A DNA stretch of 64,000 bases from Octopus vulgaris. Its lineage: Eukaryota. The translations under genes were made by a program, and so were the position numbers. Below the pieces are notes generated by a model that was given only the letters and a program-made list of their open reading frames with translations, had not been told where the DNA came from and made no database searches. Location of the stretch: contig OX597816.1 of assembly GCA_951406725.2 (NCBI GenBank), positions 868,001 through 932,000 on the forward strand, given 5' to 3'. Every line of letters starts with the position of its first letter. Positions within the stretch are counted from its first letter, which is position 1. Positions 511 to 42,485 of this stretch are shown here, piece after piece.

Positions 511-604
511 TAACAATACAGGACTCTTGCAGGCCAACCCATTTCACCAGGGAATGTGACCCTAACACTTCTGCAGTGGAGGAAGAGTCTTCTGGAGTAA
601 AACG

Positions 605-1004
605 TCAAATATTTTGGTCCTTTGTCATCTCATCAAAAATGTTCAGCATTCTGAGGTTGTCCTTCAGTGCTTCATCCCATGTCTTCCTGGGTCTCCCTCT
701 TCCACAAATTCCATCCACTTTGAGAGAACAGCACTTCTGTAAGCAACTGATGACATCAATCTGCATCACATGACCAAACCAGCCCAATCTTTTCTCTTGC
801 ACACTGCATCCAATTCTTCTTATGCCCAACATCTCTCTCACTACACTAGCACTCTGTTGCACATGTACACTAACATTACACATCCAGCAGAGAATACTAG
901 ATTCATTCCTCTCTAGCCTTCGCATGTCTTCGGTATTCAGGGCCCACATCTCGCTACCATGTAGCATTGCAGTTCATACACAAACATCATACAATTTTCC
1001 TTTC

Positions 1005-1043
<39 letters not shown>

Positions 1044-1330
1044 AGAAAGACCTTTGGTTACTAACAGAGGTGAAAGCTCTCTGAATTTTCTCCATCCTAT
1101 TCTTATTCCAGGTATTACATTCTCCATACATCCTCCTTCACTACTAATTTGGTCCCCTAAAAAGCAGAAATTATCCACAACCTCTAAAGAGCCTCCCAGA
1201 GCATTTGAGAAAATCAATTTCTGTAATTTTTATGGCTCTTGTACAAATGAACACTACCTTCTATGATAACCTTACTATTATTCCACCGCACCTCTTGTGT
1301 GTCCATAGCTTTCACTGGGTATACCATCGA
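605..1330 (-). mobile_element. Degraded RTE LINE fragment, same family as 4099-5770
   Basis: MLHGSEMWALNTEDMRRLERNE, LGWFGHV, GRGRPRKTWDE and LEVVDNFCFLGD match the 4421 ORF; interrupted by (GA)n at about 1009-1039. Confidence 0.8.
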
Positions 1331-3768
1331 TATGGTTCCTTGTCCTTTTCTTCATGGGGTTCAGCTCCTTGAGGTTGATCTTGAACACTTCATCCTGTAA
1401 CTTCCTATGTTTCCCTTCTTTCATACATTCCATTAATATTAAGATGAAAATCGTAAACACCCATAGCAATAAACACACATGTCTTCTGTATATGCAAAGC
1501 AGACTTGCCTTGGAGGTTAGTTTTGAATTTAAACTTAGGTTACTGAGATGAGTTGATCAACAACTGAGCTCATGATTTGAATTCTATGAACAATATTTTC
1601 AGGCCCAGTGTTAAGTATAGATTGTAGCATTGTTAAGATAAATGCAATTGACGATAATTATAATTTCACATAACAACATATAAAATATGAATATTATATC
1701 TGAAAGCAATATTAATCAGAGTTTAAAAGAACCTGTTAGAAAGTAAAACAATTTAACCAAGCATTTTGAGTTATATCAGGTTAATAGACAATGCTCAGTC
1801 ATTGGAGATGTTTCATGAAGTAATAATGATAAAAATGTTTCCTAGTCAAATCTATCCTCACCAAATTCACACATTAAATTTGACAACCAGCCAATCGTAC
1901 AGAGAGTTGGCTGCTTGCACTGGTGAATTGTACTTTCCAATATGTTGGCCAGAAAGACGGCTATGTGCTAGCAGCAGTAAATAAATCACTAACTCTTGGT
2001 CGATAAAACTACACTCTAACAACTTGATCATCTCCAGTTCATTTTTTCATGCTTTATTTTCTTTTGACACTTGAATATGTTGCCTTTATTTATCTAATAA
2101 TGTAATCTAGACAAGTTCAAAGTCTGTAAACATATTGATGCCTAAAACCAAGTTCTCTGTGTGTTTGTGATTGTTATCAGCTTTGAAACGGCAAATGCCA
2201 GCATATGGATTCCGAAATGTAAGATATAAGTTAGATTCAGTAAAAATAATATCCGGTCAAGCTCTCTGTTATTTCTAGAAGAGGAGGAGGGGAAAGGAGA
2301 AGAGGAGGGGAGAGGGAAGGACGAGGAGGAAGGGGAGGATGAAAAAGAGAGGAGGAGGAGGATAATGACAATGATGACAGTGACAAGGATAATAGTGGTG
2401 ATGACGATGATGATGATGATGATAGTGATGATCTATTGTAAGAGTCGTTGGCTGTAAAACTCTGCTCTTTCCCAAACACAATGGCACAATGGCACATGGT
2501 GGCATACTAACGTCTCTGCAAATAGGTTTTTATTTGCGGATGGAGTTGTTTAACAATGTCCTGTTTTCCAGCTGAATCCAATAAAGACTAATTACACAGT
2601 AATTTTGATTATTGATTATATATAATTATTGATAAAGTGTGATTACATGTCATGCAGTCCAGCATCTTTGTAACATGTGTTTTACAATTCTATTTGCTAC
2701 AGACAACATTGCCATCAAACTCCATCAGACATTCATGAAAGGGTGAAATCATGGAGAATATCTGAAACATTAAAAAGCTAACATGCATTGGGGGGGGGGG
2801 AGTTATCCTTTGCTGGTTCTTCTAGCAAGTACGAGAGATCATTCCAGACATATTTCACCTTTATTGGTCATCCTAAGTGAAAATGGAGTCTCTCCATAAT
2901 TACAAGAGTCTGCAGAGGAAGTGTCTTTAAATAGGAAATATACGATTCCCATGACCTTTCGTGATAAAACTAATATATAACATCATGAAAGATAATAAAA
3001 GAAAAAAAAGATGATATAAAATAACAGGATGGGTTTCTTAGTGATCAAGAAATACTTAATTTAGTAATTAAATATATTTTGAGATTAACATTTTTACTCA
3101 TCTTAGGAAATGAAGTTAGCAACATTATATAATTGAGGGTCACAGGAAGTTTTAGTGTTAGAGCATAGCCCCACCCCCATCCACTCTCTCCCCAGCTCAC
3201 TGAGTGATATTCAGAGCAGATGAATTAACTTTCTAAATCTAATGTGGTTAATTACCCATGTCAAATTGTAAGTAGGTCGCTTCTGCAACCTTAAAAACAC
3301 ATTATATTGATGCATATTTACACAGATATGCACACATAAATCCATATTTCATGCAAAAAAATAGCTCAAGTCTTATGAGTGAGATATAAATCGACCTTCA
3401 CCCTTTAATTTTCAGATTGTGTGTGTCAGTGTATATGTGTATACATACATATATGTGCATGTGTGCGTATGTGTGTATATATATATATATATATGAGAGT
3501 ATTGTAGTTCGCTTGAAGCATAGTGTATTGTTTGTAAAGAATAAAAAAGTTTTGAATGGTACAACAATGCACTATAATACAGACAGTGGTCTACGTACCT
3601 GTTGTAATTTAGTCAAACATAGTCTGATATGATATTTCGCAATAAAATTCCTTCTTCAGATATTCTTAGCTGGAGTTGCTGCTATAATCGGTTTTCCAAC
3701 AGCTTTTCTTCTTTATTATTATTTTTTTCTGAAGCGTCTCAGCAGTGGTCTCATGAAGCTAAAAACCT

Positions 3769-4059
3769 GTGGAAATTAGCTGCCCAGCAGATGTTAACAT
3801 AAAGCTGAAGATCGGTGAAAAAGAGAACACCTATGCTGAACTATTGAAAAATCTGCAGTTACTCTATCCTGAATACAAGTTCAGGTTTATACCTGTAATT
3901 ATTGGAGCCCTGGGATATATAGCACGCTGCTTAAATACCTATCTTAAGAAATTAGGCTTCTCAAAACCAGGAAGGAGAAAGCTAGTTCAAAGTCTACAGA
4001 TCCAATCCATCAGTGGAACTGTAAAAATCTGTAAAACTTTCCAGAAGTTTATCATTTAA
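3769..4059 (+). mobile_element. R4/Dong-like (RLE) non-LTR retrotransposon C-terminal fragment
   Basis: VEISCP...KENTYAEL...FIPVIIGALG is the end of a restriction-like endonuclease domain; close homolog on the minus strand at 6873-7328. Confidence 0.7.
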
Positions 4060-4098
4060 ATAAATGATGATGATGATGGTATATATTTAAATATATAA

Positions 4099-5770
4099 GG
4101 GAGAAAGCCTTTGACAGGGTCTCCCGATCCCTTATCTGGTAGTCGATGCGGAAACTGGAGATTGACGAATGGCTAATAAGGGCTGTACAGGCCCTATACA
4201 GAGAGGCTGTCAGCAAGGTTAGGATTGGCAATGAATATAGTGAAGAATTCCGGGTAGAAGTAGGTGTACACCAAGGTTCAGCCCTCAGTCCCCTTTTATT
4301 CATCATAGTCCTCCAGGCAATAACAGAGGAATTCAAAACAGGTTGCCCCTGGGAGCTCCTCTATGCTGATGACCTGGTCTCATAGCAGAATCACTACCAG
4401 AACTAGAAAAGAAATTTCGGGTGTGGAAGCAAGGTTTAGAATCAAAGGGCCTTAGAGTAAATGTAGCAAAGACCAAAGTTATAGTAAGCAGAAAGGCGAA
4501 CTCAGCTCACACCCCCTCAGGCAGGTGGCCCTGCTCGATCTGTAGGAAAGGTGTACGTAGAAACTCCATAAGATGTACCCAGTGTAAGCTATGGACGCAT
4601 AAGAGGTGCAGCAACATCAAAGGGAAATTAACTGATAAGATAGCTTTCATGTGTGGCAGATGCACAGGGACAATAGACACCACAGATACTCAGAAGACAG
4701 ATTCCATCACACTCCAGGGGGAGAAACTAGAAGTAGTTGATAGTTTCCGCTACCTAGGTGACCAAGTTAGTAGTGGAGGTGGATGCTCAGAGAGTGTCAC
4801 CACTAGAATACGAATAGCCTGGGCAAAGTTTAGAAAGCTCCTACCCCTACTGGCGACAAAGGGTCTCTCGCTCAGAGTGAAAGGTAGATTGTATGATGCA
4901 CGTGTGCGAACTGCCATGCTTCACGGTAATGAAACATGGACTGTGACTGCAGAGGACATGCGTAGACTTGAAAGAAATGAAGCTAGCATGATCCGCTGGA
5001 TGTGTAATGTCAGTGTGCACTCACGACAGAGTGTAAGCACTCTGAGAGAAATGCTAGACATAAGAAGCATCAGATGCGGTGTGCAAGAGCGACGCTTGCG
5101 ATGGTATGGTCATGTACTGCGGATGGATGAGGAGAGATGTGTGAAGAAGTGCCGCTCCCAAATAGTTGAAGGTATCAGAGGGAGAGGTAGACTCAGGAAG
5201 ACATGGGATGAGGTAGTCAAGCATGACCTCAGAGCGTTGGGCCTCACAGAGGCAATGACGAAGGACCGAGATCTCTGGAGAACTGCTGTGACTGCAAAGA
5301 CCCGGGCTGCTTCCTGCACCAGCTCTGCATAGCCCCAGCCCATTCAAAGTACCTTGGATTTCAGAACAATCCGTTGTGCTTGAGGAGACCTATTGAGTCA
5401 AGTACATGAACATTGAAATAAATATCAATGGAAATAGTAGTTGTGATACCTGTGCTGGTGGCATATAAAAAGCACCATCCGAATGTGGCCGATGCCAGCG
5501 CTGCCTTGACTGGCTTCTGTGCCGGTGGCACGTTAAAAGCACCAACCGATCGTGACTGCTGCCAGACTCCCCTGGCACCTGTGCCGGTGGCACATAAAAA
5601 GCACCCACTACACTCACGGAGTGGTTGGCGTTAGGAAGGGCATCCAGCTGTAGAAACACTGCCAGATCAGACTGGAGCCTGGTGCAGCCTCCTGGCTTCC
5701 CAGACACCGGTCGAACCATCCAACCCGTGCTAGCGCGGAAAGTGAACGTTAAACGATGATGATGATGATA
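4099..5770 (+). mobile_element. 5'-truncated RTE LINE: RT, PHD-like finger, 3' UTR and (GAT)n tail
   Basis: EKAFDRV, GVHQGSALSPLLF, LLYADDL, a frameshift near 4380, then ORF 4421-5332 with FRYLG, RRLRWYGHV and GRGR.RKTW; UTR subrepeats end in aaacgatgatgatgat. Confidence 0.9.
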
Positions 5771-24200: not shown

Positions 24201-24723
24201 TTTCTGAAGGCCAGAAAGATGCCAAGACATAAACCAATCTGGAAAAGAAGGATTTAGAAACCTAAAGACTCTTCATATGGTCAGAGATTTAGGGATATCC
24301 TGAGATTCAATGAAAGGGACAGGGAGCTACAAACTTGTGGCATGAAGGACAATTAAGGATTCCCGAGGGACAACTTGCTACAGACTAAATCTGGCTGGAA
24401 GTCCCATCCAAACCTAGGGTAATTGTGAATGAATGATTTGGTAGACAGGGCCATTAGAGTTAAGAAACAGTCCTGGAAGAATGGGGGTAGCAGGGAACTG
24501 AATCAGACTGCTAAGAGACAGGTATATCCACCCGAGCAAGAAGCAGCAAAGAAGTATAATTCTGTTCAACATTTGGATTGCAAAACAGTATGTGAGAGAA
24601 CATAGTGATGCCTTAGGAGAGAATTGTGTCTGTATGTTAGTTAGTTAGTTAGTTAGTTAATTTGGCTCAAAAGCAAATAGCAAGGCCATGTAGGGGGACA
24701 TGGAGTTAAGTACAGGGTGGTGT

Positions 24724-27554
24724 TCATGTAAAGAGTTCAGGCCACTTGAGGTCCAGGGAGGCTTTGAACAAAGCGGTCGTCGGCATCTTCACCATCTCGT
24801 CTGGCAGCTTGTTCCACGGATCCGCAACCCGGACGGAGAAAGCTCCTCTCCTTCGATTGAGATGAAATCGTCGCAGGTAGAGCTTTTCGGAATGACCCCG
24901 CAGCCGACGCTCCGGAGCAGGAGTGAAGAACAGCTCTTTCGAGAGGTTACACTTCCTGCTCATGATGTTGTGGGCGAGAATGAGATCACCACGGCGGCGG
25001 CATTTTTCAAGAGAACAAAGGTCGAGCGTCCTCAGCCTTTCTTCGTAAGACAAATTTTTGAGACCATGAACCATGCGGGTAGCCAGCCTCTGGACTCTTT
25101 CAAGGTGCTGTATGTCTTTGAGGAGATAAGGAGAAGAGGCTTGAATCCCATACTCCAATATGGGTCTCACCAGCGTGACATAGAGTGGCAGGAATATGGC
25201 TGCTGTGAGCATTCCGAATGACCATCGAATCAAAAACAGAATTCCGCGCGCTTTGTTGGCAGCATGGACGCACTGGGCCGAAGGCGAAAAGGAGGAATCC
25301 ACCAAGATACCCAGGTCCTTTACCTGATCGGCTCAAAATCAAGTTGAGTTGCAGGAGTAGAGCCGACAGCACTTTGACACGTTCAGACACAGGTCCCAAT
25401 CGTTAGACCACTTCCAAATTTGGTGGAGGCATCGACGAAGATCCTCTATATTACCGCGAGGAGCGACCAGTTTGATATCGTCGGCAAATAGAAGGGTGTG
25501 TTGCGTGAGGTCGTCGGGCAAGTCATTTATGAAGACTAAGAACAACAAGGGCCCAAGCACTGAACCTTAGGCACGCCACTGCTCGCACTGGAGACGTCGG
25601 ACCGCGAACCATTAACTTGAACTTGGAAGGAGCGATCTGAGAGGAAGGCACCAACCCATCGTACAATATCCGGATGGAAACTATATGCTTGAAGCTTGAC
25701 AAGTAGTAGGCGGTGGTTTACCGAGTCAAAAGCTTTGGCAAAGTCCAATAAAACGATGTCAACAGCATCACTATCATCGAGGATGCGCGTCACCAATTCT
25801 TCCATTACTAGTAAGTTGGACAAGCATGATCTCTTCGGCACGAAGCCGTGTTGGGAATCAGTGATCGAGGCTGTGTTTAGGAGGTGGAGCATCATACTTT
25901 TCTTAAGGATGGTTTCGAACATCTTGCTGATTATTGATGTAAGGGAAACCGGTCGGTAGTTAAGCGGGTCTTCGCGGCTCCCTTTCTTGAAAATTGGGCA
26001 GATTATCGCTGTTCTCCAGTCTGCAGGTATAACACCCGTCACCAATGACATATTGAATAGTCGTGTTAAGGGCTCACAGATGACCGGAGCCAACGCTTTG
26101 ATAACCCGTGGGTGTATGCCGTCAGGGCCGTGACCCTTGTTGACATCGAGGCCTTGAATAACACGTTTGACTTGGTCCCGCGTGATGATCAATCGAAGCA
26201 TTGGAGGTACCGATCTATCAAATGGAGGGGGTTCACGACCATCATCTTGTTTGAAAATAGTTGAAAAAGCCTTGGCAAATAATTGACTCTGTTGATAAGG
26301 GTCCTCAATTGATACGCCTGTTGAGTCTACCAACGTTGCAATCTGGTTGTTCAAGCGGGAATTCCGTTGGACATGGGCAAAGAAGGTTTTTGGATTGCTA
26401 CTGGCATTTGCCGCGATTTTGTATTCATAACTGAAGCGTTCTTTCTTTTCAATTTTCACGGCTCGGTCTCGTTGAGTTTTGAACACCTCAAAAGCTGCAG
26501 TCGAATCCAGATTTTTGAATTCAGCCCAAGCAATATCTCTGAGTCAACGTTCTCGTTTAACCTTCTTCGTCACCCAGGGCTTGTGTTTCTTCCTCTTGGG
26601 AAGTCCAACGGGAACTGCCTGGTCAGTCAAACAGATTACATATGCTTTGAGGGACGACCATAGTTCGTCAACTGAGGACAACGTCATCAGGGAACGCCAG
26701 TCCAGAAGCGCGGAAGCCTCGGTTAGAATTTCAAGACTTAATTGCAGAGAAGACTCTACGTGGCAGCGAAGTAATCGTGGGCGTGGAAAAAGTTGTGTGC
26801 ATGACGAACTTCAGGACCGCATGATCACTCTTGGCAAGAGGGGCGCACACCGATACGTCTGACACTGATCTTGGATAGCGGGAGAATACCAGATCTAGCA
26901 TAGATGGCTGCTGCCCAGACCGATGCCTTGTCGGATATTCAACATGCTGCGATAGAAAACAATCTTCAGCCACGTCAAGAAGGGCCTGCCCGAACCGGGA
27001 AGATGTTGTACAAATTGATGCGGGCCAATCGATCGTGGGAGCGTTGAAGTCGCCTAGTACCAAGCAGTCATGCGAAGCTGAAACGAATCTTATCGCTTCG
27101 AGTAGATGAGCATCGTCCTGTAGACAGCCAACACGGGCAGGCAAAACTCAGATAGGCTCAGCTTGCAATAGACAGCATCGAATTTGGTTGTAGGTTGAGC
27201 ATTTGTGGGTAGAATACCGCAGGACGGTTTGTGCTCAGACTTAACATACACAGCAACACCTCCACCTCGCCTTTTTCCTCTGTCACATCTGAAAAGGACG
27301 TAGCCCTGCAGGTGGATCTCTGAGTCCTTTACTGCTGGAGTCAGCCAAGTCTCGGTGATAGCTATCACATCAGGGGAGTCGCGTAGGGCCAGTGTAAATA
27401 GTTCACTGAACTTTGGGAATAAGGAGCATGAGTTGGTGTAGACGATGCTGAGCTGCGAAGTCTGAGGGGCGGGAGTTGGGGAACAAGCAGAATAAAGGGC
27501 ATCAGAGATAGCATCGTTGACGGGGGTATCAACTTCACTTCGATTTGCCCTCAC
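24724..27554 (-). pseudogene. LINE ORF2 (APE and RT), split by several frameshifts
   Basis: Consecutive domain pieces in ORFs 27090-27554, 26731-27144, 25536-26486, 25339-25560 and 24724-25305. Confidence 0.85.
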
Positions 27555-29663: not shown

Positions 29664-29683
29664 ACACTCTCCAAGCAATGAAT

Positions 29684-29767
29684 CTATCTGTAACCATAAC
29701 CTTTGATTACTTTCTCATAACTTCGAATCTTTTTGCTCACAGTCTCTTTAGCTTTTCTTTTCAAGGC
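29684..29767 (-). CDS. RPL13A: RPL13A exon 7 ([27 protein letters not shown])
   Basis: tttacag acceptor; TAG at 29686-29684. Confidence 0.9.
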   Translation of the reverse strand, partial: ALKRKAKETVSKKIRSYEKVIKGYGYR

Positions 29768-32700
29768 CTGTAAATGAAGAAAACAAAGGAAAATATTATA
29801 CCAATAGCACAAAAAAGTTTGGAACAAAATAACATATTAAGAAATGAAAAACTTACTGCATCAGATCTTGCTTTTCCAACAAAGATACTAGATTTCGCCT
29901 TTCTTTTAGCTTCTAAACTGGCAATGACAGGTTGGTATTTCCAGCCAACTTCATGAGCCAATCGATTCAAATCGCAGTACTGTGAAATAGAATTTTCAAA
30001 ATGTCAGATTTAATAAATTCCTTGTAAAAATAAATAAACGAAAGCAACCAAGATGTGACATTGGTTCACATTTGGACAGTTGCAGTAAACAGCAACAATA
30101 GGATGGCAAGGGAGGAAACTGCAACAAGGACAGAATCAGCTGAGTCATCAGTGTTTGGTTTCTTTACATCAATCGTCAAACAATGTAGGTAAATGTTATA
30201 ATCATCATCGACACAGCTAACTCCACCAGAAAGGGCAATCATTTATACAACAAAGTAGATTTTTAACAGCCAAATGCCTTTCCTGCTCCCAAGAAACTAT
30301 TTTTATAGAGCGATACTTAAATATTATATAGTAAAGAACTTCTTGGAAAGTTATCCCCAAGGAGCACATTTACAAATTAAATCTGAGGTACAAACTTTGT
30401 GCTAAAAAAATCTGTTCATTTACGTTGCAAGTTTTACAATATTCTTTTTCAAATGTAACTGAAACAAAGACAATGTATTCCAACAGAAATATGGTAACAA
30501 ATGGGTTAAAAAACCAATTTAAGATTCTCTTTGTACTTGGTAAAAGCATCAAAACTTGTCATTAAACTGAGATGTTTAGTGGCTGTTAATAATTTTAACA
30601 AAGAAAACCAAGAAATTACGTTTTAACATGAGAATAATCATCACAATTTATAACTTCTGGCTGATATTAACCATGTTTTGTACTCATTCACCCACACACT
30701 TTAAATCCTCATGAGACATCCTAATTATTGCATTGTCACAAGTTAAATTCAGAAGGACTTATGCCAAATAATTAGAGACCTTCAAACAGGAGACCAATTG
30801 AAAGGTCAGTCAAAAAGTTGAGATTAAACTGTTTCAGAGTAAAAAAGACCTGCCAATACAGAGCTCTTATAAATCAGCCGAGTTATCAGATTCTGATTAA
30901 TTCTCATAGAAGAATCAAGCAATGTAGGTAATTAAAGTCATCATTAACACAGCTGATATATTGAGACCAAACTAGTGAGATTTACTAACTGAAATATGCA
31001 ATGTGTTGTATCTAAATAGAGAAAACCAGCAGCAAATGAAATGGTAGGAGAGGTAACTCAGTACTTCGTTGTTAACTTGCTCTCATCGGTCTTATTAATA
31101 AGATGAAATTATTGTCATTACAAAATGTAATTAGAAAGAAAGATGAAATTATTTCAGTTCAGCGACTTGAACATGAAATGAAGACGATGGTAATGCTGCT
31201 ACGAAGAAATATCCACATTCCCATGGTCGCATGGGTTAGACAGAATTTGTTATGGTAGATCTACAACCAAATGCCCTTCTTTTCATAAGCTCTTAATGGT
31301 TCTAAAGCAGGGCCAACCATTTTCCAGGCAAACAACATTGCATATCTGAGAGCAACAGTTGCCCACAACTACCACAGGATGTCAAGACAAGGGACACAAC
31401 CAAACAGAGGAGAATTCTGGTCTAAGCACCCCATAGAATCCTTCAACTTTTTTATTTTAGAATTGGCAGAAAATGTTTGCAAATTTGTGTTCTATACACG
31501 GGGATTCAGACAGGCTAGTATTAAAAGGGTTCAAAATTTTGAAAAAGCAATGTGAAGTTTATACAAACTGTATATTGAGACCATAAGCTGAAAACATGTA
31601 ATCAGTGGACACTGATAAATACTCTTTGAAACTAAGACATTGCCCATATCAAGAGTCCTGGCAATGACCGAGACCGAGAGTAAATGGAAATACCAACACA
31701 GAAAAAGTGATGAAGTCATAAGAACACTTGTAAATCAGCTGAGTTGTCAGATTTTGTTAATTCTCATAGAAGAATCAAGCAATGTAGGTAATTAAAGTCA
31801 TCATTAACACAGCTGATATACTGAGTTCATAAGAGTGGATCAATTGTGGAAAAGCAATTAACCCTTCTGAAATTGCCTTCAGGTTCTATAATATAGAAAT
31901 TTCCATTTTAAAATCACCAAAAACCCCACCATCAAAATTTTACACTATCTTATGGTCCCAGCATGATAACAACAAATTATGTTAATAAATTCATTATCAT
32001 CTTCAAAATCCTTGGACTTCCGTAGAAGTTTTGTAACAAAAGGGTTAAAGTAATGCTACATTAAAAGCAGGGCTTTTCAGAAAATATATTTTATTTCCAT
32101 AGAGGAAATCACAAATATACATCCGTAAGTCTCTTTCGTTTCAAACAGAATTAAACAAAACTTAATGAATCCAAGTCAACAATTTCTGTATTTTAAACCA
32201 CGCACAAAGTTTGCTTCCCAACCACACGGTCCCAGACTCAGCCCCAGGCCAACCAAAGGCCTGTGAGTGGATTTGGTAGATGGAAACTGAAAGAAGCATA
32301 GCGTATGTATGCACATAATTACATACATATATGTATTTGTGCTTCTGTGTTTGTTGTGCCACCATCACCTGAAAACTGATGTAACTTAGCAGTCCAACAA
32401 AAGAGACTGGCAGAATAAGTACTAGGCTTACAAAGAATAAGTCCTGGGGTTGATTTGTTAGGCTAAAGGCAGTATTCCAGCATGGCCACAGTTAAATGAC
32501 CGAAAAGAGTGTGTAGCATTGACTGCCAAAAGCCAGAGTACTCAATACCATACCAGAGAAGGAAGCCGAGTCAGTCGTTTGCTGTAATTCTAAAGATTTG
32601 CTTGGTGTCCAAAAGGTCGTCGGTTCTAACTCGAGTGATGACAGTGTTGAATGCACAGGAGAAACTGCAAGAGGCTGATCTGACCAACAACAAAACATTC

Positions 32701-35700
32701 TATATTTACCTTTCGGCCAGGTTTTAAACGAATAATTCGGAGAGCTGCTGGAACAATCATTCGCTTCTTTTTGTTGTACTGAGGAGGGATTCCCTCAAAT
32801 GCCTTCAGTCGGCCAAGAGCATCTTTTCCACGCTTAATTTTATGAGGAAGCATACCTAAAGAGAAACAAAAGTACAATGATACAAGCAATACTAATATAT
32901 AAAACAAATTTCACCACATCTCATCACTCTTATTTATCAACACTCCAAACGGCATTAGACATTCTTTTGCAAATTTTAATTTTTGCTCAGGCAGATCTCA
33001 TAATCATCATCATTATCATTTGACGTCCGTTTTCCATGCTGACATGGGTTGGACAGTTTGACTGAGGACTGGCGAGCCAAATGGCTGCACCAGGCAGAGT
33101 TTCTACAGCTGGATGCCCTTCCTAACGCCAACCACTCCAAGAGTGCAGTGGGTGCTTTTACATGCCACCGGCACGAGGACCGGGCAATGCCAAGCTTTTT
33201 TTTTTATTTTAATTCTGATAATACATTCCATAACTGAAAAGTGCAGTAACATTGTTCACGTTTTTCCCCATAAATTTACAGAGTGGGGAACTGCAGACCA
33301 CACACAAAGTATCTCTAATTGGAAAAGCACATCCTTAAAATATCTAAGATTGGTCCTGAAGATAAGGGCCATAAAATACTCCAACCCTCAACAATTGGTG
33401 ACACCATAAAGGTCAGGTGAAGTCCACAATTACGAATTGTTCTCATCTAAGATGGTGCTGCTGCATACATCCAGCAAGAGAAAGTCCCTCTGGACTGTCT
33501 CCACTATAATGGCCCTGGTACCTCAGAGTTGTTGTGCAGCCCCTCGCCAATTTCCTCTCAACAGTCAAGTGGAGAAACATTATCATCCAATCTCATCCAG
33601 GCATCAAATTTGTTTATTTTCTCCAAGAAATGAGAGCCGCAACACTTGATTGTCTTGACAGACATAGCAAATAAATCTCTCAAGCCATACTGCCCAAATG
33701 GATAAAAAGACAAGATGGTAGCAGAAATACTCCACAATATTCACTCTTTTCTTACCATATTTCCATCAAAATACAGTTCTGCTTATTTAATTTTGAAAAT
33801 GAAGAATGTAGTAAAATAACTTTTGTCTCTTAGTTTTCAGAAGATAAACATGAAACCCTGATGTTTTACAACTTTTATATCACCTTAAATCCAACAGCTT
33901 ATAGAACCAGAGAGGGTCTCAAAAGAGTTTATTGTATTACATCACAGAAACAGATTTTAAAACCTGAGTAATACACTCCTTTCCTCAACACAACCAGCTG
34001 AACAAATATACCCACTTTTTAAGGAGAAACAAAACTGCTCTCACACTTTTACAACTATGTCCTTTCCAAGGCACGAGGCTTAGATTTTCCTTACTAAATA
34101 AATCACAAAATTTACATATTGTAACAAAGACTAAAAAAAAAAAGAAAAAAGGTTTTAGGCCTGAGTCTCAGGTGGAAGTGCATGTCTGTGTACAATCATT
34201 AAATACTTCATTTTGGTGAATGATCATCATAGACAACAGGCCAAAACACCTTGATAATTACAGAGAACTTATACTCTATCCCTCTAGATAACAGCGCACC
34301 AAACTGCAGCACACACAGACACATTACTCAATCATAAAGCCACACTACTTCTATTTGTAGTTTGCTAATCTGCTTGAGACAGCCTCTTAGTTCTTATATA
34401 AACTGTTTAAAGTAAAATGCCATCCAAATTTCAGTTTAATGACAAAGCTATATTACTAATTTCTTTATGATTTTCAAAATTAATTGAAATGAAAGCAGCC
34501 TATTTCAATATAGTAAAAGGTTATATAATGGAAGAAATGTAAAAGCTAAGAGCAACTCACTCTCTCAGTGCCTGTTTTATCACTTTCTAGCTAAAACCAA
34601 TCCATGACAGCTGCATGTGAAAAGAACCATCCGAATGTGGTTGACGCCAGATCCGCCTGACTGGCTCCCATGCCAGTGGCACATAATAAGCACTATCGAA
34701 ACATAATCAATGCCAGGCCCACCTGACTGGCTGGCTCCCGTGCCAGTGGCACATAAAAAGCACCCACTAGACTTTTGGAGTAGTTGGCATTAGAAAGGAC
34801 ATCCAGCTGTAGAAATACTGCCAGATCAGAATGGAGCCTGGTACAGCTACTGGCTCTCCAGACCTCAGTCAAACCATCCAACCCATGCCAGCATGGAAAA
34901 ACAGACAAACTATAATGATAAACCAATGACTAACAAAAACAGTCCAAAGAAATAAATGTAGCAGCAACACAAAGCTGGTCTCAAACATCTTTGGCATTTG
35001 TAAAATGTATTTCAGCCAGTCTCAGTTGGTAGTGCATGTGTGTAATAATCATTACTTTCATGACAGTGAAAAATCATCATAGACATAAGGGGCCGAAAAA
35101 AGCATTACTTCACAAAAGTTAGTTAGTTAATTTGGCTCAAAAGCAAATAGGAAGACCATGTAGGGGGACATGGAGTTAAGTACAGGGTGGTGTTCATGTA
35201 AAGAGTTCAGGCCACTTGAGGTCCAGGGAGGCTTTGAACAAAGCGGTCGTCGGCATCTTCACCATCTCATCTGGCAGCTTGTTCCACGGATCCGCAACCC
35301 GGACGGAGAAAGCTCCTCTCCTTCGATTGAGATGAAATCGTCGCAGGTAGAGCTTTTCGGAATGACCCCGCAGCCGACGCTCCGGAGCAGGAGTGAAGAA
35401 CAGCTCTTTCGAGAGGTTACACTTCCCGCTTATGATGTTGTGGGCGAGAATGAGATCACCACGGCGGCGGCGTTTTTGAAGAGAATAAAAGAAGCCAGTG
35501 TAAGAGAGCAATCAGCAGGGCATTGCCAAAAGAAAAAGAAAATGTTAAAGCCATTCAGAACATGGCAAGCCAAAGCTGACAGTGGAACCAAATCCTGTCA
35601 GCTTGGGAAACGAACATTAATTGATGCTTGATCGGCAGAGTTTAAGGTGGTTAATTCATAAAGCCATTAGAGCAGTGTTCTACAGAACCCTAGGGTTCCA

Positions 35701-38700
35701 GTGAACCTCAGTTGAGAAACGCTGCATTAGAGTGTTGGATAGAAAACACTATTTCAACTAGGTTTGGAGCACGATAAACCAATGACTAACAAAAACAGTC
35801 AAAAGAAATAAATGTAGCAGCAACACAAAGCTGGTCTCAAACATCTTTGGCATTTGTAAAATGTATTTCAGCCAGTCTCAGTTGGTAGTGCATGTGTGTA
35901 ATAATCATTACTTTCATGACAGTGAAAAATCATCATAGACATAAGGGGCCGAAAAAAGCATTACTTCACAAAAGAAGCCAGTGTAAGAGAGCAATCAGCA
36001 GGGCATTGCCAAAAGAAAAAGAAAATGTTAAAGCCATTCAGAACATGGCAAATGAACTTTAGCATTTAGAGGTCCCTCGCTCCACAAATACTACCCCTTA
36101 CATAGTCGATGGAGGCTTTCCCACCCACCCCACTTGGCAAACTCACCAGTTCTGGTGGAACAGACTGTAACATGTGTCAGCCATGAAAACCAGCACAAAT
36201 CCTGCCATGGTCAACCTGATTAAAAATAGTGTCAGTACTGACTGGTGAAATTTCATGAGAATTAGTATGGCTGCATGGTAAGAAGTTTGCTTCCAAATAG
36301 CATGACTCCAGGTTCAGTCCCAATGCATGGCACCCTGGACAGATGTCCTCTACCAAAGTGTCTGAATAATCAAAACTTTCTGAGTGGATTTGGTAGATGG
36401 AAACAAAGAAGCCAACCAGACGGTGTGGGTGTGTGTGTGCATGCCACTGTTTCCTTGCCTTTTCATCATCATTTGTTAAATTGCCACAGGTAAATAATGC
36501 CATACTTGGCAACAGTAAGGATACCCAGTTGTAGAAAATTTGCCTCAATAAATTCTGTTCAATACATGTGAGGAGCATGGGAAAATGGATGCTAAAGTGA
36601 CGACAATGAATTGTGCTACCTAATTACCATCATCAAATACTGAAGCTTCTAACAATGGTTAATGTTTCAACTGAATATAGAAGTTTCTGAGAATAGTAAG
36701 CAGTAATCTGAAATTTCCAGACGTTTGGAATTTTGTTTATTTAACAGATGGTTATAAAACTACATCCATATCGATATAGAATCATCAAAGTGGTTAGAAC
36801 CCATTAGTTAATTATGCAAACCTTTGTGTACAATCCACAGGTAAAATTGGGAACAGAACATATTTTGTTCTGTTATGGAATGCAATATAATGTATGAAAA
36901 AAAAACCTTATGCTATGCTGGAAAAGGACTGGTGTACAAAGCAGATCATGAAATTCTTTGGGATATTTAATAATTCTTGCAAAGCATATCCCTATTTCTA
37001 AAGCTTCCAGCTCAGACACGCTAATCACTGCTAACCCCTTTAAATATCACCTGCCTGAGACCACACTTGGTTCTAGAGGTTATCCAAGATATCACATCAT
37101 CCTTATTTAAATAGCAGAGAGAAATAGGGTCTATTTCCAACAGACTGAAGGAAATGTCTCGTAACTGTCCAACAGGGAAAAGTTTTGTTTGAAACATACG
37201 AAAACTATCTGAATTGCATGGAGGCATTTACACAATCATAGAACATTTGATTAACTTTGGATACTCTTCTTTGTAGCATTTACACCAAATAGCAGAAAAC
37301 AATGGCCTTTATAGTCTCAGGTGGAAGTGCATGAATTGGAACTTTCATTGATTGCATTCAATTCGGTGTACGGTCATCACAGACAGCCGGCCAGAACAAC
37401 TTTGCCAAACTTATTGAGAATATTCCATAACAAATCTTACCTCTGACTGTCCTAAAGAAAATTTTGCTGGGGGCCCTGAAATGGAAGGGTCCTCTTCTGG
37501 GATTCACATTACATCTTTTTCGAAGGTAATCTAAATACTTCACTGAAAAAAAAAAAAGTGACAATGAAATTACTTGAGGGCAAGCTTTTAACAAAATTGG
37601 ATTATTAACGTGGGGGGGGGGGGGTACAACATGTATTTCATTAGTGTTATCTGTCATAAGGGTAACTTTGGAATTATACTCTTAAAACCATAACATACAA
37701 TTATAATTCAACTTTTACAAAATGAAATACCGGTTTTCAAAAGAAAACCATCATCTTAAAATAAATTTCTCATAACTACTCATTTACTCCCTCATCCTCC
37801 TGTCTTGATTCTTTCTGCATACACTGTTCCTTTACTCATTGCCTGCCATCAAGCTTAGTATGTGAGCTCTCAATATCTCTTTTACCCACTCAGTAAAACG
37901 TGGCTAGAGCTATCAATCATTCCGAATCTACATCAACTCCTATTACAGAAGATCATAACAGGGGAAAAAATCTATTTCAACAAATACATTATCTGTCTGG
38001 ATAAAAAATAATTAGGTGACCAGTCATTCATATGTGGTAAAGAGAGGAGACGCCCGTGTCATTGGGGAGGGGCTCATTTTGTTGGAATTTATGTAAGATG
38101 AAACCAACAGCAAAACCTAAAAACTATCTTGAAATTTATAGAGATGACAAAAGATATTTCACATCCTAGCATCAAGTAAATAACGGACCATTAAACCACA
38201 AGGTCTTAGACTTCTGTGGCAAATACAACCCTCTTCATTAATGATCGACTGAATAAGGGTGAAGAACAGAAACAAAATGGTATTTGCGAAGTTTCCATAG
38301 TGCCAGAGTCGTGGCAATTCTTGTTATGGCTGGGTCAATGGGCGAGGAACGGGGGTTCGATATTGAATGACTCGAAATCCCACAAGAAATATCAGTGAGG
38401 ACGTATCCTGGAACAACGTTAGTAAATAAAATGCATAATTAATTGTACGAAATTAATAAAATACTTACTTTTATTTCTGTGGAAATGGCCTGAAATATTG
38501 ATACCTTCACATCGGACAATGACCATTCTTTGTCCTAAAATATCCAAGTAGATTAAATTAGAAAAACTAATTCTCGCAGGATATCAAAAATTACAATTGG
38601 ATGTTTCCAAAAAAAAAAATACATTACTAAAACGAAATAAATCCCCCCCCCCCCCATTACGGATACAAACACCGCTCTCCTGAAAATGCCGCTAATGTGA

Positions 38701-39873
38701 AACCCACCTCCCTCCAAATATGAAAGTCAATGGAAAATGCGTTTCGCATAACGAAAATCCACATTACGGCAAGAGTTTTCAGAAACGCAACCCGAAAACC
38801 CGTGATTTAATGGACTCGGCCTTTTAATTTTCAGTAATTTGACTTGAATCAAGTCATTGTAACAAAAGGTATTGGGAGATATTATCCTTAGAAAGGAAAA
38901 TATCACATTTTAAAGTAAAAAATGATTAGGAACACAGCCTTCTTCTACTCACCTTGCAAGAGACTTTTGGCTACGACTGCAGACAATCGCCCCAAAAGAT
39001 GCCCACTGGCATCGATTACGATGGGCTGAGGAAAGAAAAATATATTTGTTATGTCAAGATGCAACCACAAGTATTTAAAGACTTTTTTTCTACGATGAAG
39101 GAAAGCTTAGATTGACAAACCATGACCAAAAAAAAAAAAAAAAAACATCCTATTTCGCGAAAATTGTGATAATCCATATCAGTGGAAACGAAATTAACAA
39201 TTCGTAAAATATAAAAATGTTTAAAAGTCACATTTAAGAGTCTTAAGGCCTCGACGAGGTTCATTAATTGCCGGGCGTGATAGGATTTCTATTAATATTA
39301 TACAAAATATAATCCTTTCTGCTTCTTTTTAGAATAAGCATCCTTTAATCATGTGTGTGAAAATGTTGAAAACTAAGCCCAATAAAGCCTAAAATGATTT
39401 AACAGTGAAATTATTCCCAATAAAGCAGAAATAAGAATTCGGATTCTGTAGAAGTGAAGCACATGGAGCAATTCTGAAAATCCTATTAACTGTTTTATAA
39501 AATAGCTATAAGCGAAAAGTGACAAAAACGAGAATGATCTCAGTATAGAGAGACGAAAGCACTTTAGTAATTCAGAAACAATACAGAGTTCATGAAGGAA
39601 AAAAAAAGGTGAAAAAAAGCGAAGAGATTTCTGTTCACGTGGATTTCAGCCATTTTAAAAGAAGACTTGTCATGCTGCGGCCAAGTGGAGCCGTTTAAAG
39701 CAAGATTTACTGGAATTAGCAAAAGAGATTTCATAATGTGACCGTCTTAAATGATTCTGTATAACGAATCTGAGCTAATCATAGAGATTTTAAGATGAAA
39801 ATAGTCTGTAATTTGTGAATCCTACGAGTAAATATTGAGCAGTTGAAAGACAAACCTGACGTTGGAACACCAT
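29684..39873 (-). CDS. RPL13A: 60S ribosomal protein L13a (uL13), 7 coding exons, 203 aa
   Basis: Exons 39873-39856, 39025-38953, 38534-38469, 37542-37441, 32855-32710, 29979-29857 and 29767-29684 (18+73+66+102+146+123+84=612 nt), all GT-AG. Spliced product [20 protein letters not shown]...[10 protein letters not shown]...[24 protein letters not shown]...[10 protein letters not shown]...GYGYR*. Confidence 0.95.
29857..29979 (-). CDS. RPL13A: RPL13A exon 6
   Basis: [27 protein letters not shown]; ttcacag acceptor and gtaagt donor. Confidence 0.95.
30144..30212 (-). ncRNA. SNORD34: Box C/D snoRNA, SNORD34/U34 family, copy 1
   Basis: C box ATGATGA, guide TTACCTACATTG, D' TTGA, D box CTGA; flanking stem agctgtgtc/gactcagct. 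The guide is antisense to 28S CAAUGUAGGUAA. Confidence 0.88.
30882..30948 (-). ncRNA. SNORD34: Box C/D snoRNA, SNORD34/U34 family, copy 2
   Basis: gtta-ATGATGA...TTACCTACATTG-c-TTGA...CTGA-taac, with outer stem atcagc/gctgat. Confidence 0.88.
31743..31808 (-). ncRNA. SNORD34: Box C/D snoRNA, SNORD34/U34 family, copy 3
   Basis: Near-identical to copy 2, with the same boxes, guide and outer stem. Confidence 0.88.
32710..32855 (-). CDS. RPL13A: RPL13A exon 5
   Basis: [48 protein letters not shown]; ctttag acceptor and gtaaat donor. Confidence 0.95.
33003..33180 (-). repeat. RTE 3'-tail copy in RPL13A intron 4
   Basis: (atc)n..acgtccgttttccatgct...ctacagctggatgcccttcctaacgcc. Confidence 0.75.
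34165..34234 (-). ncRNA. Box C/D snoRNA, SNORD33-related, variant guide CATGCACTTCCAC
   Basis: gtct-ATGATGA...CATGCACTTCCAC-CTGA-gac; extra outer stem ggcctg/caggcc. Confidence 0.8.
35019..35084 (-). ncRNA. SNORD33: Box C/D snoRNA, SNORD33/U33 family
   Basis: gtct-ATGATGA...CACATGCACTACCAA-CTGA-gac. The guide is antisense to 18S UGGUGGUGCAUG, as in vertebrate U33. Confidence 0.88.
35118..35486 (-). mobile_element. 5'-truncated copy of the CR1-type LINE
   Basis: Near-identical to about 24648-25013 including the (taac)n tail; aaaa(g) target duplication shown by the empty paralogous site near 35970. Confidence 0.92.
35673..35724. mobile_element. 52-bp hAT-type MITE remnant
   Basis: Ends cagtgttct...agaaacgctg, flanked by an exact 8-bp repeat cattagag (35665-35672 and 35725-35732). 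Confidence 0.7.
35875..35940 (-). ncRNA. SNORD33: Box C/D snoRNA, SNORD33/U33 family (duplicate)
   Basis: Identical to 35019-35084, inside a local duplication. Confidence 0.88.
37314..37384 (-). ncRNA. Box C/D snoRNA, SNORD33-related, variant guide CATGCACTTCCAC
   Basis: gtct-GTGATGA...TTGA (D')...ATGAAA (C'-like)...CATGCACTTCCAC-CTGA-gac; outer stem tggcc/ggcca. Confidence 0.8.
37441..37542 (-). CDS. RPL13A: RPL13A exon 4
   Basis: [33 protein letters not shown]; tttcag acceptor and gtaaga donor. Confidence 0.95.
38469..38534 (-). CDS. RPL13A: RPL13A exon 3
   Basis: [21 protein letters not shown]; ttttag acceptor and gtaagt donor. Confidence 0.95.
38953..39025 (-). CDS. RPL13A: RPL13A exon 2
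   Basis: [24 protein letters not shown]; ttcctcag acceptor and gtgagt donor. Confidence 0.95.
39856..39873 (-). CDS. RPL13A: RPL13A exon 1 coding part (MVFQRQ)
   Basis: ATG just after the pyrimidine tract ctctctttccc; CAG|gtttgt donor in phase 0, matching exon 2. Confidence 0.8.
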
Positions 39874-40073: not shown

Positions 40074-42485
40074 ATGCCTCCAGCCGTGGAAGCCGAAGGC
40101 CTGCCGCTTCCAGAATCAGTAACTGGACCGGAAGAGAAATCTGAAGAAGAAAAAACTTATACACGTCCTGTAATCGGTATTATTTATCCTCCGCCAGAAG
40201 TGAGGAACATTGTTGACAAAACCGCCAGTTTTGTGGCCCGAAACGGACCCGAATTCGAAAGTCGGATCAGACAAAACGAGGTAAATAACCCAAAGTTTAA
40301 CTTTTTGAATCCTGCCGATCCCTACCATGCATACTATCAGCACAAAGTTAAAGAATTTAAAGATGGCAAGGGCCAAGAGCCAATTGTTAGTAAGATTATT
40401 ACTGCGGCGATGGCCTTGAAACCTATGAGCGAGCCTATAAAAAATATAGAACCAATTATTCCTAATGAACCGCCTGCTGAGTTTGAATTTACTGCTGATC
40501 CCCCATCGATCTCGGCTTTTGATCTGGATGTTGTCAAGTTAACTGCTCAGTTTGTGGCCCGTAACGGTCGTCAGTTTTTAACAAACTTAATGAATCGGGA
40601 ACAGAGGAATTACCAATTCGACTTCCTCAGGCCGCAGCACAGTCTTTTCAATTATTTTACTAAACTAGTTGAACAATATACCAAAATTTTAATTCCCCCT
40701 AAAGACCTTAGCAACAAGCTGAAGAAAGAGTCTCAAGTCAGTAAACACATTTTAGAGCAAGTTAAATATCGTGTTGAGTGGGCAAAATACCAAGAACGGG
40801 AGCGACGGAAAGAGGAAGATGCCCTGGAAAAAGAACGTATCGCTTATGCTCAGATTGATTGGCACGATTTCGTTGTGGTGGAAACAGTTGATTTCCAAGC
40901 GAGTGAGGTGGGCAATCTGCCTTCTCCGACAACCCCGGAAGAAGTCGGTGCTCGGGTCATCCAACAGGAGCGTTACGAAAAAGGAGAGAACACCAACGAC
41001 GTTGCAATGGAAGTGGAATCAGATGAAGAGGATGGCGATGACATCATTCTAGATAAAGGTGGTAAAACACAAAAAGATGTTCTTGTTGATAAGAACAAGC
41101 ATTCTTCTATTATTCCTCCTTCACTACCGATACCTCCGCAGCTCCGTCCTCCTCCACCTTCTGACAATAACCAAGTACTGGACATGGACGAAGGTTCAGA
41201 TGAGGATGAAATCGACGAAGAAAGAAAAATAGACAAGGTGATCACTCCTCAACCTCCACCGCCGCCACCCAGTGATATTCCCCAGCCTCCACCTCCTTTA
41301 CCACCAACCCCTGATCAAGTTATCGTACGTAAGGATTATAACCCTAAGGCCCGAACAATCAGCACCGAGCCCAATCCTGATTCTTTCATGGTGTCTCCGA
41401 TCACTGGTGAAAAGATTCCTACTCATAAAGTACCTGAACACATGCGAATTGGTTTGCTTGACCGCAAGTGGATTGAAGAACGCAATCGTTCAATTGCTGA
41501 AAAGCGAGAGCAAGAAGAAGTTTATGCTCCTGGTTTGGCCATTGGCAGCAGTTTGAGACAACTGGCTGAACGCCGTACTGATATTTTCGGTATTGGTGCT
41601 GAAGAAACTCAGATTGGTAAAAAGATAGGGGAAGAAGAGAAAAAAGAAAAGAAAGTTGTCTGGGATGGACACACAGCTTCGATGGAGAAAGTAACACAGA
41701 AAGCTCGTGAGAATATCACCATTGAAGAACAGATTGCTGTTATTCATAAAGTGAAGGGTTTAGTACCTGATGAAGAGAAGGAGAAAATTGGTCCAGCCAT
41801 GCCCAAACCATCAAAACCCATACATCCACCAATGCAACACCCAATACCTCCCAAACCAATGCCACCAGCACCTATGCCTACCAATACTATGACTCCAAAT
41901 ATTATGAAGATACAGCCCCCACCCCCACCTCCTGTACAACCGGCACCTCCCATGCCACCAATGCCCCGTCCTCCCGTGCCCCAGAGTATGGTGATTCTTC
42001 CACCTCGACCACCACCAACTGCACTTGGAAATGTCTTGGGCATTTCACAGCGTCCCCCACAACCACCAGTGCCACAACTGCCAGTTTCAACATCAGATTT
42101 CAGTGTTCCTCCCCCACCACCAAAGGAAGATGATCAACCAACCCAATCAAAGCGACAGAAAACTGAAGAATCTCTCGTTTCAGAAGAAGAATATTTGCGA
42201 ACACACAAGAACCCGATTTTGGTCAAGGTTTTGGTGCCAAACGTTCCAGATAAACCTGAATGGAACCTCAATGGTCAAGTGCTCAACTTTACTTTACCAC
42301 TTACTGATTCAGTGTCTGTAATTAAAGCAAAACTTAACGAAGCACTCAGTATTCCTGCTGGTAAGCAGAAATTACAGTATGAAGGTATCTTTGTCAAAGA
42401 TTCCAATACTTTAGCCTTTTACAATCTTCCCCATGGAGCAAGCATCAATTTGCAACTCAAAGAACGAGGTGGTCGGAAGAAGTAA
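40074..42485 (+). CDS. SF3A1: Splicing factor 3A subunit 1 (SF3a120/Prp21), single exon, 803 aa
   Basis: SURP1 (IIYPPPEVRNIVDKTASFVARNGPEFE), SURP2 (DLDVVKLTAQFVARNGRQFL), IDWHDFVVVETVDF, AERRTDIFG, a Pro-rich region and a C-terminal ubiquitin-like domain ending KERGGRKK. Confidence 0.97.
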   Translation: MPPAVEAEGLPLPESVTGPEEKSEEEKTYTRPVIGIIYPPPEVRNIVDKTASFVARNGPEFESRIRQNEVNNPKFNFLNPADPYHAYYQHKVKEFKDGKGQEPIVSKIITAAMALKPMSEPIKNIEPIIPNEPPAEFEFTADPPSISAFDLDVVKLTAQFVARNGRQFLTNLMNREQRNYQFDFLRPQHSLFNYFTKLVEQYTKILIPPKDLSNKLKKESQVSKHILEQVKYRVEWAKYQERERRKEEDALEKERIAYAQIDWHDFVVVETVDFQASEVGNLPSPTTPEEVGARVIQQERYEKGENTNDVAMEVESDEEDGDDIILDKGGKTQKDVLVDKNKHSSIIPPSLPIPPQLRPPPPSDNNQVLDMDEGSDEDEIDEERKIDKVITPQPPPPPPSDIPQPPPPLPPTPDQVIVRKDYNPKARTISTEPNPDSFMVSPITGEKIPTHKVPEHMRIGLLDRKWIEERNRSIAEKREQEEVYAPGLAIGSSLRQLAERRTDIFGIGAEETQIGKKIGEEEKKEKKVVWDGHTASMEKVTQKARENITIEEQIAVIHKVKGLVPDEEKEKIGPAMPKPSKPIHPPMQHPIPPKPMPPAPMPTNTMTPNIMKIQPPPPPPVQPAPPMPPMPRPPVPQSMVILPPRPPPTALGNVLGISQRPPQPPVPQLPVSTSDFSVPPPPPKEDDQPTQSKRQKTEESLVSEEEYLRTHKNPILVKVLVPNVPDKPEWNLNGQVLNFTLPLTDSVSVIKAKLNEALSIPAGKQKLQYEGIFVKDSNTLAFYNLPHGASINLQLKERGGRKK

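What the first reader, a model, noticed from the sequence alone, without database searches (positions are those of the whole stretch)
30144..37384. Multi-copy snoRNA clusters in RPL13A introns: four U33-type in intron 4 and three U34-type in intron 5
Seen: seven C/D snoRNAs with intact boxes, sense to the host, several per intron; five have an extra flanking stem (agctgtgtc/gactcagct, atcagc/gctgat, ggcctg/caggcc, tggcc/ggcca). Known: vertebrate hosts usually carry one snoRNA per intron, released by debranching and exonucleolytic trimming. Inference: producing several from one intron needs endonucleolytic cuts, recursive splicing or hidden non-coding exons, or only some copies mature. This may be an undescribed snoRNA processing or dosage arrangement in cephalopods.
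Basis: partly seen in the sequence, partly recalled or inferred. Interest (0 to 1): 0.75.

Follow-up and report, generated by a model that had tools for sequence, protein, structure and literature searches.

The report
Several guide RNAs per RPL13A intron
Two introns of a ribosomal-protein gene carry four and three copies of small guide RNAs for ribosomal RNA methylation instead of the usual one per intron, and the inner copies would likely have to be cut free from between their neighbours.

Summary
Observation confirmed. RPL13A intron 4 holds four U33-type and intron 5 three U34-type box C/D genes, sense to the host, with intact boxes. Public contigs join the flanking exons directly; no extra joint appeared among the U34 copies, which cannot prove absence. 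Two inner U33 copies come from a recent, real tandem duplication. The pattern is not locus-specific: RPL4 has five U18 in one intron, RPL7A has U24 plus U36 in one, and an outside animal-type RPL13A has six tandem U33. This scan noted the same arrangement before, in this genome (RPL34) and in other genomes. New here: only the inner U33 copies match the 18S target base; both outer copies share a U-U mismatch there, and no other U33 gene was found in the genome. Best reading (0.5): stem-assisted snoRNP assembly, cuts in the spacers, then trimming. Main rival: exonucleases only, giving sno-lncRNAs. No small-RNA data were available, so maturation is untested. Intronic clusters are known from rice and Drosophila H/ACA genes; for animal C/D genes one per intron is the reported rule.

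The parts
39856..39873 (-). RPL13A exon 1, coding part (preceded by a pyrimidine run)
   Evidence: joint 39025-39856 in contigs of 2 of 4 runs
38953..39025 (-). RPL13A exon 2
   Evidence: weak Pfam Ribosomal_L13 match
38469..38534 (-). RPL13A exon 3
37441..37542 (-). RPL13A exon 4
   Evidence: joint to exon 5 in 4 of 4 runs
32856..37440 (-). Intron 4 (4585 nt), host of four U33-type genes
37317..37380 (-). U33-type copy a (5'-most, 60 nt after the donor); U at guide position -5 (U-U mismatch at the 18S target); extra 11-bp pairing to 18S just upstream of the target; UGGCC/GGCCA outer stem
35878..35936 (-). U33-type copy b (inner); 12-bp guide duplex with A at -5 on 18S U1833 (own numbering)
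35022..35080 (-). U33-type copy c (inner), identical to b
34168..34230 (-). U33-type copy d (3'-most); U at -5 like copy a; GGCCUG/CAGGCC outer stem
34917..36051 (.). Recent tandem duplication: A (34917-35118 = 35773-35974, one difference) and B (35487-35568 = 35970-36051) around a unique spacer X (35569-35772)
   Evidence: B-X-A, X-A-B and A-B-Y bridged by contigs
35119..35486 (.). Repeat insertion between copies b and c, flanked by AAAAG on both sides; 99% like 24647-24946; LINE origin is recalled from the reading frame, not tested
32710..32855 (-). RPL13A exon 5
29980..32709 (-). Intron 5 (2730 nt), host of three U34-type genes
31747..31804 (-). U34-type copy a; D' guide pairs 12 bp with 28S U2505 (own numbering); AUCAGCUG/CAGCUGAU stem
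30886..30944 (-). U34-type copy b (inner); body 97% like copy a, flanks unrelated; stem kept through a G-U change
30148..30208 (-). U34-type copy c, 168 nt before the acceptor; 13-bp guide duplex; longest stem
29857..29979 (-). RPL13A exon 6
29683..29767 (-). RPL13A exon 7, coding part to the stop

Best explanation
Seven box C/D snoRNA genes sit four and three to an intron in RPL13A, and the copies are likely made from the host transcript and freed by predicted cuts between neighbours before ordinary trimming. Shown: the genes, their boxes, their rRNA pairing, their flanking stems, their place inside single introns, and a recent tandem duplication of one copy. Inferred: local duplication built the clusters; each copy assembles its proteins with the help of its own flanking stem, since none lies near the 3' splice site; after splicing and debranching, exonucleases stop at the outermost assembled copies, leaving a snoRNA-ended intermediate (3.2 kb in intron 4, 1.7 kb in intron 5); an unidentified endonuclease nicks the spacers and trimming finishes each copy. 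The U34 copies and inner U33 copies would guide 2'-O-methylation of 28S U2505 and 18S U1833 (own numbering; human Um2824 and Um1326, recalled). The outer U33 copies would bind the same 18S stretch but probably not methylate it.
For: Exon 4-5 joint in 4 of 4 runs; exon 5-6 joint in 2 of 4 runs, with exon 5 letters as loose ends in X4 and in 4 of 4 further runs (runs only guessed to be RNA). Inner copies look selected: U34b keeps boxes, guide and stem while its flanks are unrelated to U34a (0.52-0.56 identity), and the inner b/c are the only U33 genes found in the genome with a full match at the target base. RPL7A puts two different guides, U24-like and U36, in one 3058-nt intron, and that U36 was the only match in the genome search. 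RPL4 keeps five U18 in one 6977-nt intron. If co-assembly only trapped copies in long RNAs, repeated duplication would cost mature guides (inference). Distances from box D to the acceptor are 168-4461 nt, against 71, 71, 72, 90, 91 and about 600 nt for 6 outside single copies read by eye. Stems: 5 of 7 below the 5% tail of 1017 intron windows, b/c at 5.4%. Terminal stems compensate for distance from the branch point (PMC10234308, passages).
Against: No mature snoRNA and no cut site was observed; no small-RNA library was laid. No shared cleavage signal was looked for by structure, and no shared upstream word exceeded chance. In mammals two snoRNAs in one intron give a stable sno-lncRNA, not two snoRNAs (PMC11028025, PMC4234469, passages). 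With 45-nt windows the U33 stems are not significant (0.12-0.32), and 4 of 7 outside single copies have stems as strong as copies a-c (-12.2 to -12.7 kcal/mol). Most expressed human C/D snoRNAs lie over 100 nt from the branch point, so distance says little (PMC10234308). Most annotated vertebrate copies are not expressed (13-45% are; same paper).
Confidence: 0.5

Rival explanations
1. Exonucleases only. Each excised intron is trimmed to the outermost assembled snoRNPs: one mature snoRNA when one copy assembles, a stable sno-lncRNA when two or more do. The outer U33 copies, mismatched at the target base, would serve as caps.
For: This is the documented fate of two snoRNAs in one intron, including SNORD33-SNORD34 of mouse RPL13A (PMC4234469; PMC11028025). 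The two mismatch copies are exactly the outermost ones. Needs no new enzyme.
Against: It would trap the only fully matched U33 guides and couple U24 to U36 in RPL7A. The outer U34 copies have full guides. Contig depths cannot rank segments, so searches do not test it.
Confidence: 0.27
2. Unannotated alternative exons or recursive splice sites divide the introns, so that each snoRNA leaves in its own intron in minor, rapidly degraded isoforms.
For: Exon-like acceptor/donor pairs exist in 3 of the 5 gaps between copies. In one search only 15 of 155 joints were shown, so intron 4 was not fully seen. Such isoforms would be depleted by decay (established knowledge).
Against: 11 exon-like pairs on the sense strand against 12 on the antisense strand; 2 of 5 gaps have none; 0 recursive AG-GT sites (crude consensus scores). 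Similarity between paralogues ends at the stems, with no shared exon-like block. The six-copy array in L067 has a 168-nt period.
Confidence: 0.1
3. Only one lineage per intron matures; the other copies are recent or decaying passengers of a duplication-prone genome.
For: b/c and the RPL4 units are 90-99% identical duplicates. The U33 matches are below the Rfam cut-off. Copies a and d miss the target pair.
Against: a and d share an identical 21-nt stretch with the mismatch guide, box D and stem although their bodies are 73% alike. U34c and U34a/b are 70% alike but keep the guide and stem. That pattern indicates selection on at least two lineages per intron.
Confidence: 0.09
4. Some copies have their own promoters inside the intron and do not depend on the host transcript.
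For: Intronic but independently transcribed small RNAs exist in nematodes (recalled, no call).
Against: No 6-, 7- or 8-mer shared among 9 upstream regions beyond random intron windows. Copy a starts 60 nt after the donor. All copies are sense to the host.
Confidence: 0.04

Closest known systems
Vertebrate RPL13A with SNORD32A, 33, 34, 35A (Rfam RF00133, RF00147)
   Same: Same host gene, same two families in the same order (U33 before U34), same rRNA pairing (order from PMC4234469 passages).
   Different: There the snoRNAs lie in separate introns; here four and three copies share one. No U32- or U35-type gene was found here.
sno-lncRNAs (mouse RPL13A SNORD33-SNORD34; Prader-Willi region; LNC-SNO49AB)
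   Same: Two or more C/D snoRNAs inside one excised intron.
   Different: In mouse RPL13A it takes alternative splicing (PMC4234469, passages); here the geometry is built into the main isoform, with 3-4 paralogues. The long RNA was not observed here.
Intronic snoRNA clusters of rice and of Drosophila box H/ACA genes
   Same: Several snoRNA genes in one intron of a protein gene.
   Different: Drosophila C/D genes, and both classes in silkworm, follow one per intron (PMC3089462, passages). Here the clustered genes are C/D, 0.7-1.6 kb apart. The primary papers were not held; I saw only their titles and that secondary statement.
Archaeal C/D guides with a mismatch at the target base
   Same: Extended pairing to rRNA with a mismatch at the fifth position, read by the authors as binding without methylation (16 of 262 double guides; PMC4644070, passages).
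   Different: Those are predictions for one arm of a double guide; here whole paralogues carry the mismatch while sister copies keep the match.

Membership tests
Box C/D methylation-guide snoRNA | Box C (RUGAUGA) and box D (CUGA) 55-65 nt apart with a terminal stem | tested here: met
   7 of 7
Box C/D methylation-guide snoRNA | At least 10 bp to rRNA with a Watson-Crick pair five bases before D or D' | tested here: met
   Met by 5 of 7: U34a, b, c and U33b, c
Box C/D methylation-guide snoRNA (U33 copies a and d) | Watson-Crick pair at the fifth position | tested here: not met
   U opposite U in 15 of 15 18S copies read, of 27 found; best alternative is 8 bp in 28S, at most 5 bp in U2, U6 or 5.8S
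Box C/D methylation-guide snoRNA | Accumulates as a short RNA bound to fibrillarin, NOP56/58 and SNU13 | not testable with these tools
   Only assembled contigs were available
SNORD34 (RF00147) | Score above the Rfam cut-off and guide to the conserved 28S site | tested here: met
   3 of 3 above 38 bits; 12-13 bp duplex
SNORD33/Z195 (RF00133) | Score above the Rfam cut-off of 44 bits | tested here: not met
   31.3-36.3 bits; hence 'U33-type', assigned on guide, host and position
Intronic snoRNA cluster | Two or more snoRNA genes in one intron, sense to the host | tested here: met
   Direct exon joints across both introns; no coding exon missing
Intronic snoRNA cluster (polycistronic processing) | Endonucleolytic release of each copy | not testable with these tools
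   No raw reads with molecule ends
sno-lncRNA | Stable long RNA ending at two snoRNAs | tested here: inconclusive
   Contigs tile through and beyond the copies; they show neither ends nor levels

The most novel reading that the evidence does not exclude
This animal processes box C/D snoRNAs from multi-copy intronic clusters as a general strategy, using an endonuclease step not described for animal C/D genes. In RPL13A intron 4 the copies have divided the work: the two outer U33 copies are non-methylating caps or rRNA chaperones of a 3.2-kb precursor, and the inner copy supplies the 18S methylation only once it is cut out.
Probability: 0.15. Interest if true: 0.8.

Novelty: new variant of a known kind. 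Interest (0 to 1): 0.5.

Why it matters
Animal box C/D genes are reported to follow one per intron because only exonucleases are thought to trim them. Here three ribosomal-protein genes examined each break that pattern, so either animals can cut C/D clusters apart or these very highly transcribed genes shed snoRNA-ended long RNAs in their main isoform. RPL13A intron 4 makes the question directly testable: the only fully matched guides for one 18S site are the inner copies, so methylation at that base, together with copy-specific reads, reports on whether inner copies are released or whether a U-U mismatch at the target base is tolerated.

Tried and rejected
Assembly artefact for copies b/c: rejected; contigs bridge B-X-A (X1), X-A-B (X3, X4) and A-B-Y (X13), four studies. 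Expression search: no RNA holder listed on record; all 22 runs were contigs and none was labelled small-RNA. Hidden exons in window 29850-32130: no joint in 4 runs, two of which cover 30 of 30 bins; 13 of 14 loose ends shown were canonical neighbours or a repeat at 30474-30513; contigs drop rare forms, so this is not proof. Intron 4 joints: only 15 of 155 shown, the non-canonical ones at repeats. X21 and X22 cover no snoRNA bin, which says nothing on expression. Intron 3 has almost no cover in 4 runs; not interpreted. A variant 18S fitting copies a/d: none in 15 of 27 copies read. Other targets for a/d in 18S, 5.8S, 28S, spacers, U2, U6: none of 10 bp; U1, U4, U5, tRNAs and mRNAs not searched. 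Other U33 loci: C16 hit is a simple repeat, C2 hit lacks boxes. Arrays of nine U31 and six U14, and three U15 loci: no coding exons recognised by eye in the translations, so their intron layout is unknown and they are not counted. Shared promoter words: none. Pfam on single RPL13A exons: 1 of 4 matched weakly; the solved-structure search settled the identity. No other cephalopod genome was reachable. Literature: 8 searches found no paper on multi-copy intronic C/D clusters in molluscs; the library lacks most subscription papers. Supplementary Table S1 of PMC11028025, which I did not open, may give counts of intronic clusters per animal species.
Full report
Observation. The window carries an intact RPL13A gene on the minus strand: seven GT-AG exons and a 203-codon frame. 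Exons 4 and 5 match consecutive parts of uL13. Rfam finds three SNORD34 genes above the cut-off in intron 5 and four SNORD33-family matches below the cut-off in intron 4. All seven are sense to the host and have boxes C and D. They are not chance: the U33 guide plus box D occurs five times in 2.8 Gb, four of them here, and the reversed control never. The SNORD34 search of the genome found only these three (68 candidates scored).

Are they really in one intron? Contigs of public runs, guessed to be RNA, join exon 4 to exon 5 in 4 of 4 runs and exon 5 to exon 6 in 2 of 4; four more runs show exon 5 letters directly behind exon 6. In 29850-32130, which holds all three U34 copies, four runs gave no other joint; two of them covered 30 of 30 bins. 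Contigs drop rare forms and intron 4 was seen only in part (15 of 155 joints), so minor isoforms are not excluded. By sequence, exon-like site pairs are no commoner on the sense strand (11) than on the antisense strand (12), two of five gaps have none, and there is no recursive site.

History. U33b and c are identical and sit in a duplicate with one difference in 202 nt; a repeat flanked by AAAAG lies between them. Contigs of four studies bridge the junctions of this layout, so it is not an assembly error; one run appears to lack the repeat (inferred from 25 unlike letters). The other copies are older: a-d 73%, b-d 75%, a-b 65%, U34c to a/b about 70%, U34a-b 97%, with flanks near 50% except inside the recent duplicate. 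What is conserved is the snoRNA and its stem.

Guides. I took the animal's own rRNA from an rDNA array. All U34 copies pair 12-13 bp with 28S U2505, and U33b/c pair 12 bp with 18S U1833 (own numbering). U33a and d have U at the fifth position, opposite that U, in 15 of 15 18S copies read of 27 found. They share 21 identical bases around this guide, so it is not decay of one copy. No better target appeared in rRNA, U2 or U6. Among 136 guide matches in 120 metagenome loci, some redundant, 4 have U there (the pattern allowed only A or U); two near-identical ones look like a real homologue, one lying beside snR61. So the mismatch is rare, not unique, and may be tolerated. Archaeal guides with such a mismatch are predicted to bind without methylating (PMC4644070, passages). 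No other U33 gene was found, so the only fully matched guides are inner copies.

Position and stems. Box D lies 168-4461 nt from the acceptor; five of six outside single copies lie at 71-91 nt (read by eye). With 20-nt flanks, 5 of 7 stems fall in the lowest 5% of 1017 intron windows and b/c at 5.4%; with 45-nt flanks only the U34 stems do. Some outside single copies have stems as strong as a-c. A stem is reported to compensate for distance from the branch point, but distance is a weak predictor in human (PMC10234308, passages).

Generality. In the same genome five U18 lie in one 6977-nt RPL4 intron, and a U24-like gene (31.3 bits, below cut-off) and U36 share a 3058-nt RPL7A intron; the flanking exons read on in frame. 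That makes 3 of 3 ribosomal-protein hosts whose exons I could map. Nine U31 and six U14 copies are also clustered, but their hosts are unresolved. Among 120 metagenome loci, 7 hit RPL13A, about three distinct genes: two keep one U33 per intron, and L067, with the same exon borders as here, has six tandem U33 at a 168-nt period after the exon 6 donor. That contig ends within the array, so its place in the last intron is inferred. After this work I looked up earlier scan notes: nine copies in an RPL34 intron of this genome and similar arrays in other genomes. These are unchecked and are not counted as support.

Mechanism. Debranching and exonucleases free one snoRNA per intron; with two assembled snoRNPs they leave a sno-lncRNA (PMC11028025, passages and first part of the introduction), as shown for SNORD33-SNORD34 of mouse RPL13A after alternative splicing (PMC4234469, passages). 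I favour an added cut in the spacers (0.5), because inner copies look selected, different guides share an intron in RPL7A, and duplication recurs. This is an argument from conservation; no cut or mature RNA was seen. Exonuclease-only trimming with long RNAs (0.27) fits the mismatch in the two outer U33 copies. Hidden exons (0.10), passengers (0.09) and own promoters (0.04) follow.

Comparison. Intronic clusters are a recognised class; animals predominantly keep one snoRNA per intron (PMC11028025). Drosophila clusters H/ACA genes but keeps C/D genes single (PMC3089462, passages). The primary rice, Drosophila and position-rule papers were not held. Passages of PMC10557570, PMC12205218, PMC6962438 and PMC4287351 added nothing decisive. 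Eight searches found no account of this arrangement in molluscs, within a library that lacks most subscription papers.

Verdict. Real, and a new variant of a known arrangement. It is not special to this locus and the scan has met it before. The outer-mismatch, inner-match layout of the U33 copies is the new and testable part. Interest 0.5.

Noticed in passing
G000:C3:75046562-75051771 (L143): Five SNORD18 copies in one 6977-nt intron of RPL4, in duplicated units of 250-700 nt, all pairing with 28S A1007 (own numbering).
   Followed up: yes
G000:C23 (L151:4302-5159; L150:549-603 and 4962-5021): RPL7A: U24-like gene and U36 in one 3058-nt intron; two further C/D candidates for 28S C3460 upstream, intron layout not mapped.
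   Followed up: partly
G000:C6:131056400-131067086 (L146, L147): Nine SNORD31 matches about 1 kb apart, seven with the same score; no coding exon recognised, host probably non-coding.
   Followed up: partly
G000:C2:106457186-106461623 (L154): Six U14 matches in 4.4 kb (below the Rfam cut-off), with a weak SNORD87-like match 1.7 kb upstream; host not identified.
   Followed up: partly
G000:C21:35140543, 35154394 and C19:20191539 (L156, L158, L159): Three U15-like genes; one has a SNORD52-like match about 470 nt downstream. No ribosomal-protein exons recognised nearby.
   Followed up: partly
L067:26-929: Six tandem U33 copies at a 168-nt period after exon 6 of an RPL13A gene with the same exon borders as the window's; an independent amplification in another intron.
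   Followed up: partly
L088:6001-6075 and L100: A U33/snR55-like gene with U at guide position -5, lying beside snR61 in L088; a second lineage with the mismatch.
   Followed up: partly
L062 and L036: U33, U33 and U34 matches about 1 kb apart on one strand with no RPL13A hit; host not identified.
   Followed up: no
L073: U33 copies in the introns of two neighbouring unrelated genes, which read by eye like RPS20 and a P-type ATPase.
   Followed up: no
window 39026-39855: In run X13 one contig runs from exons 4-2 into intron 1 with many differences; this run's organism label differs.
   Followed up: no
window 40073 and rightwards: A reading frame on the plus strand seems to start about 190 nt from the RPL13A start, head to head, with proline-rich repeats near 41100-42000.
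   Followed up: no
L012:6537-9179 and 104-4707: The rDNA unit has a 2.6-kb 18S and a 4.6-kb 28S match, with an array period of about 18 kb on C20.
   Followed up: no
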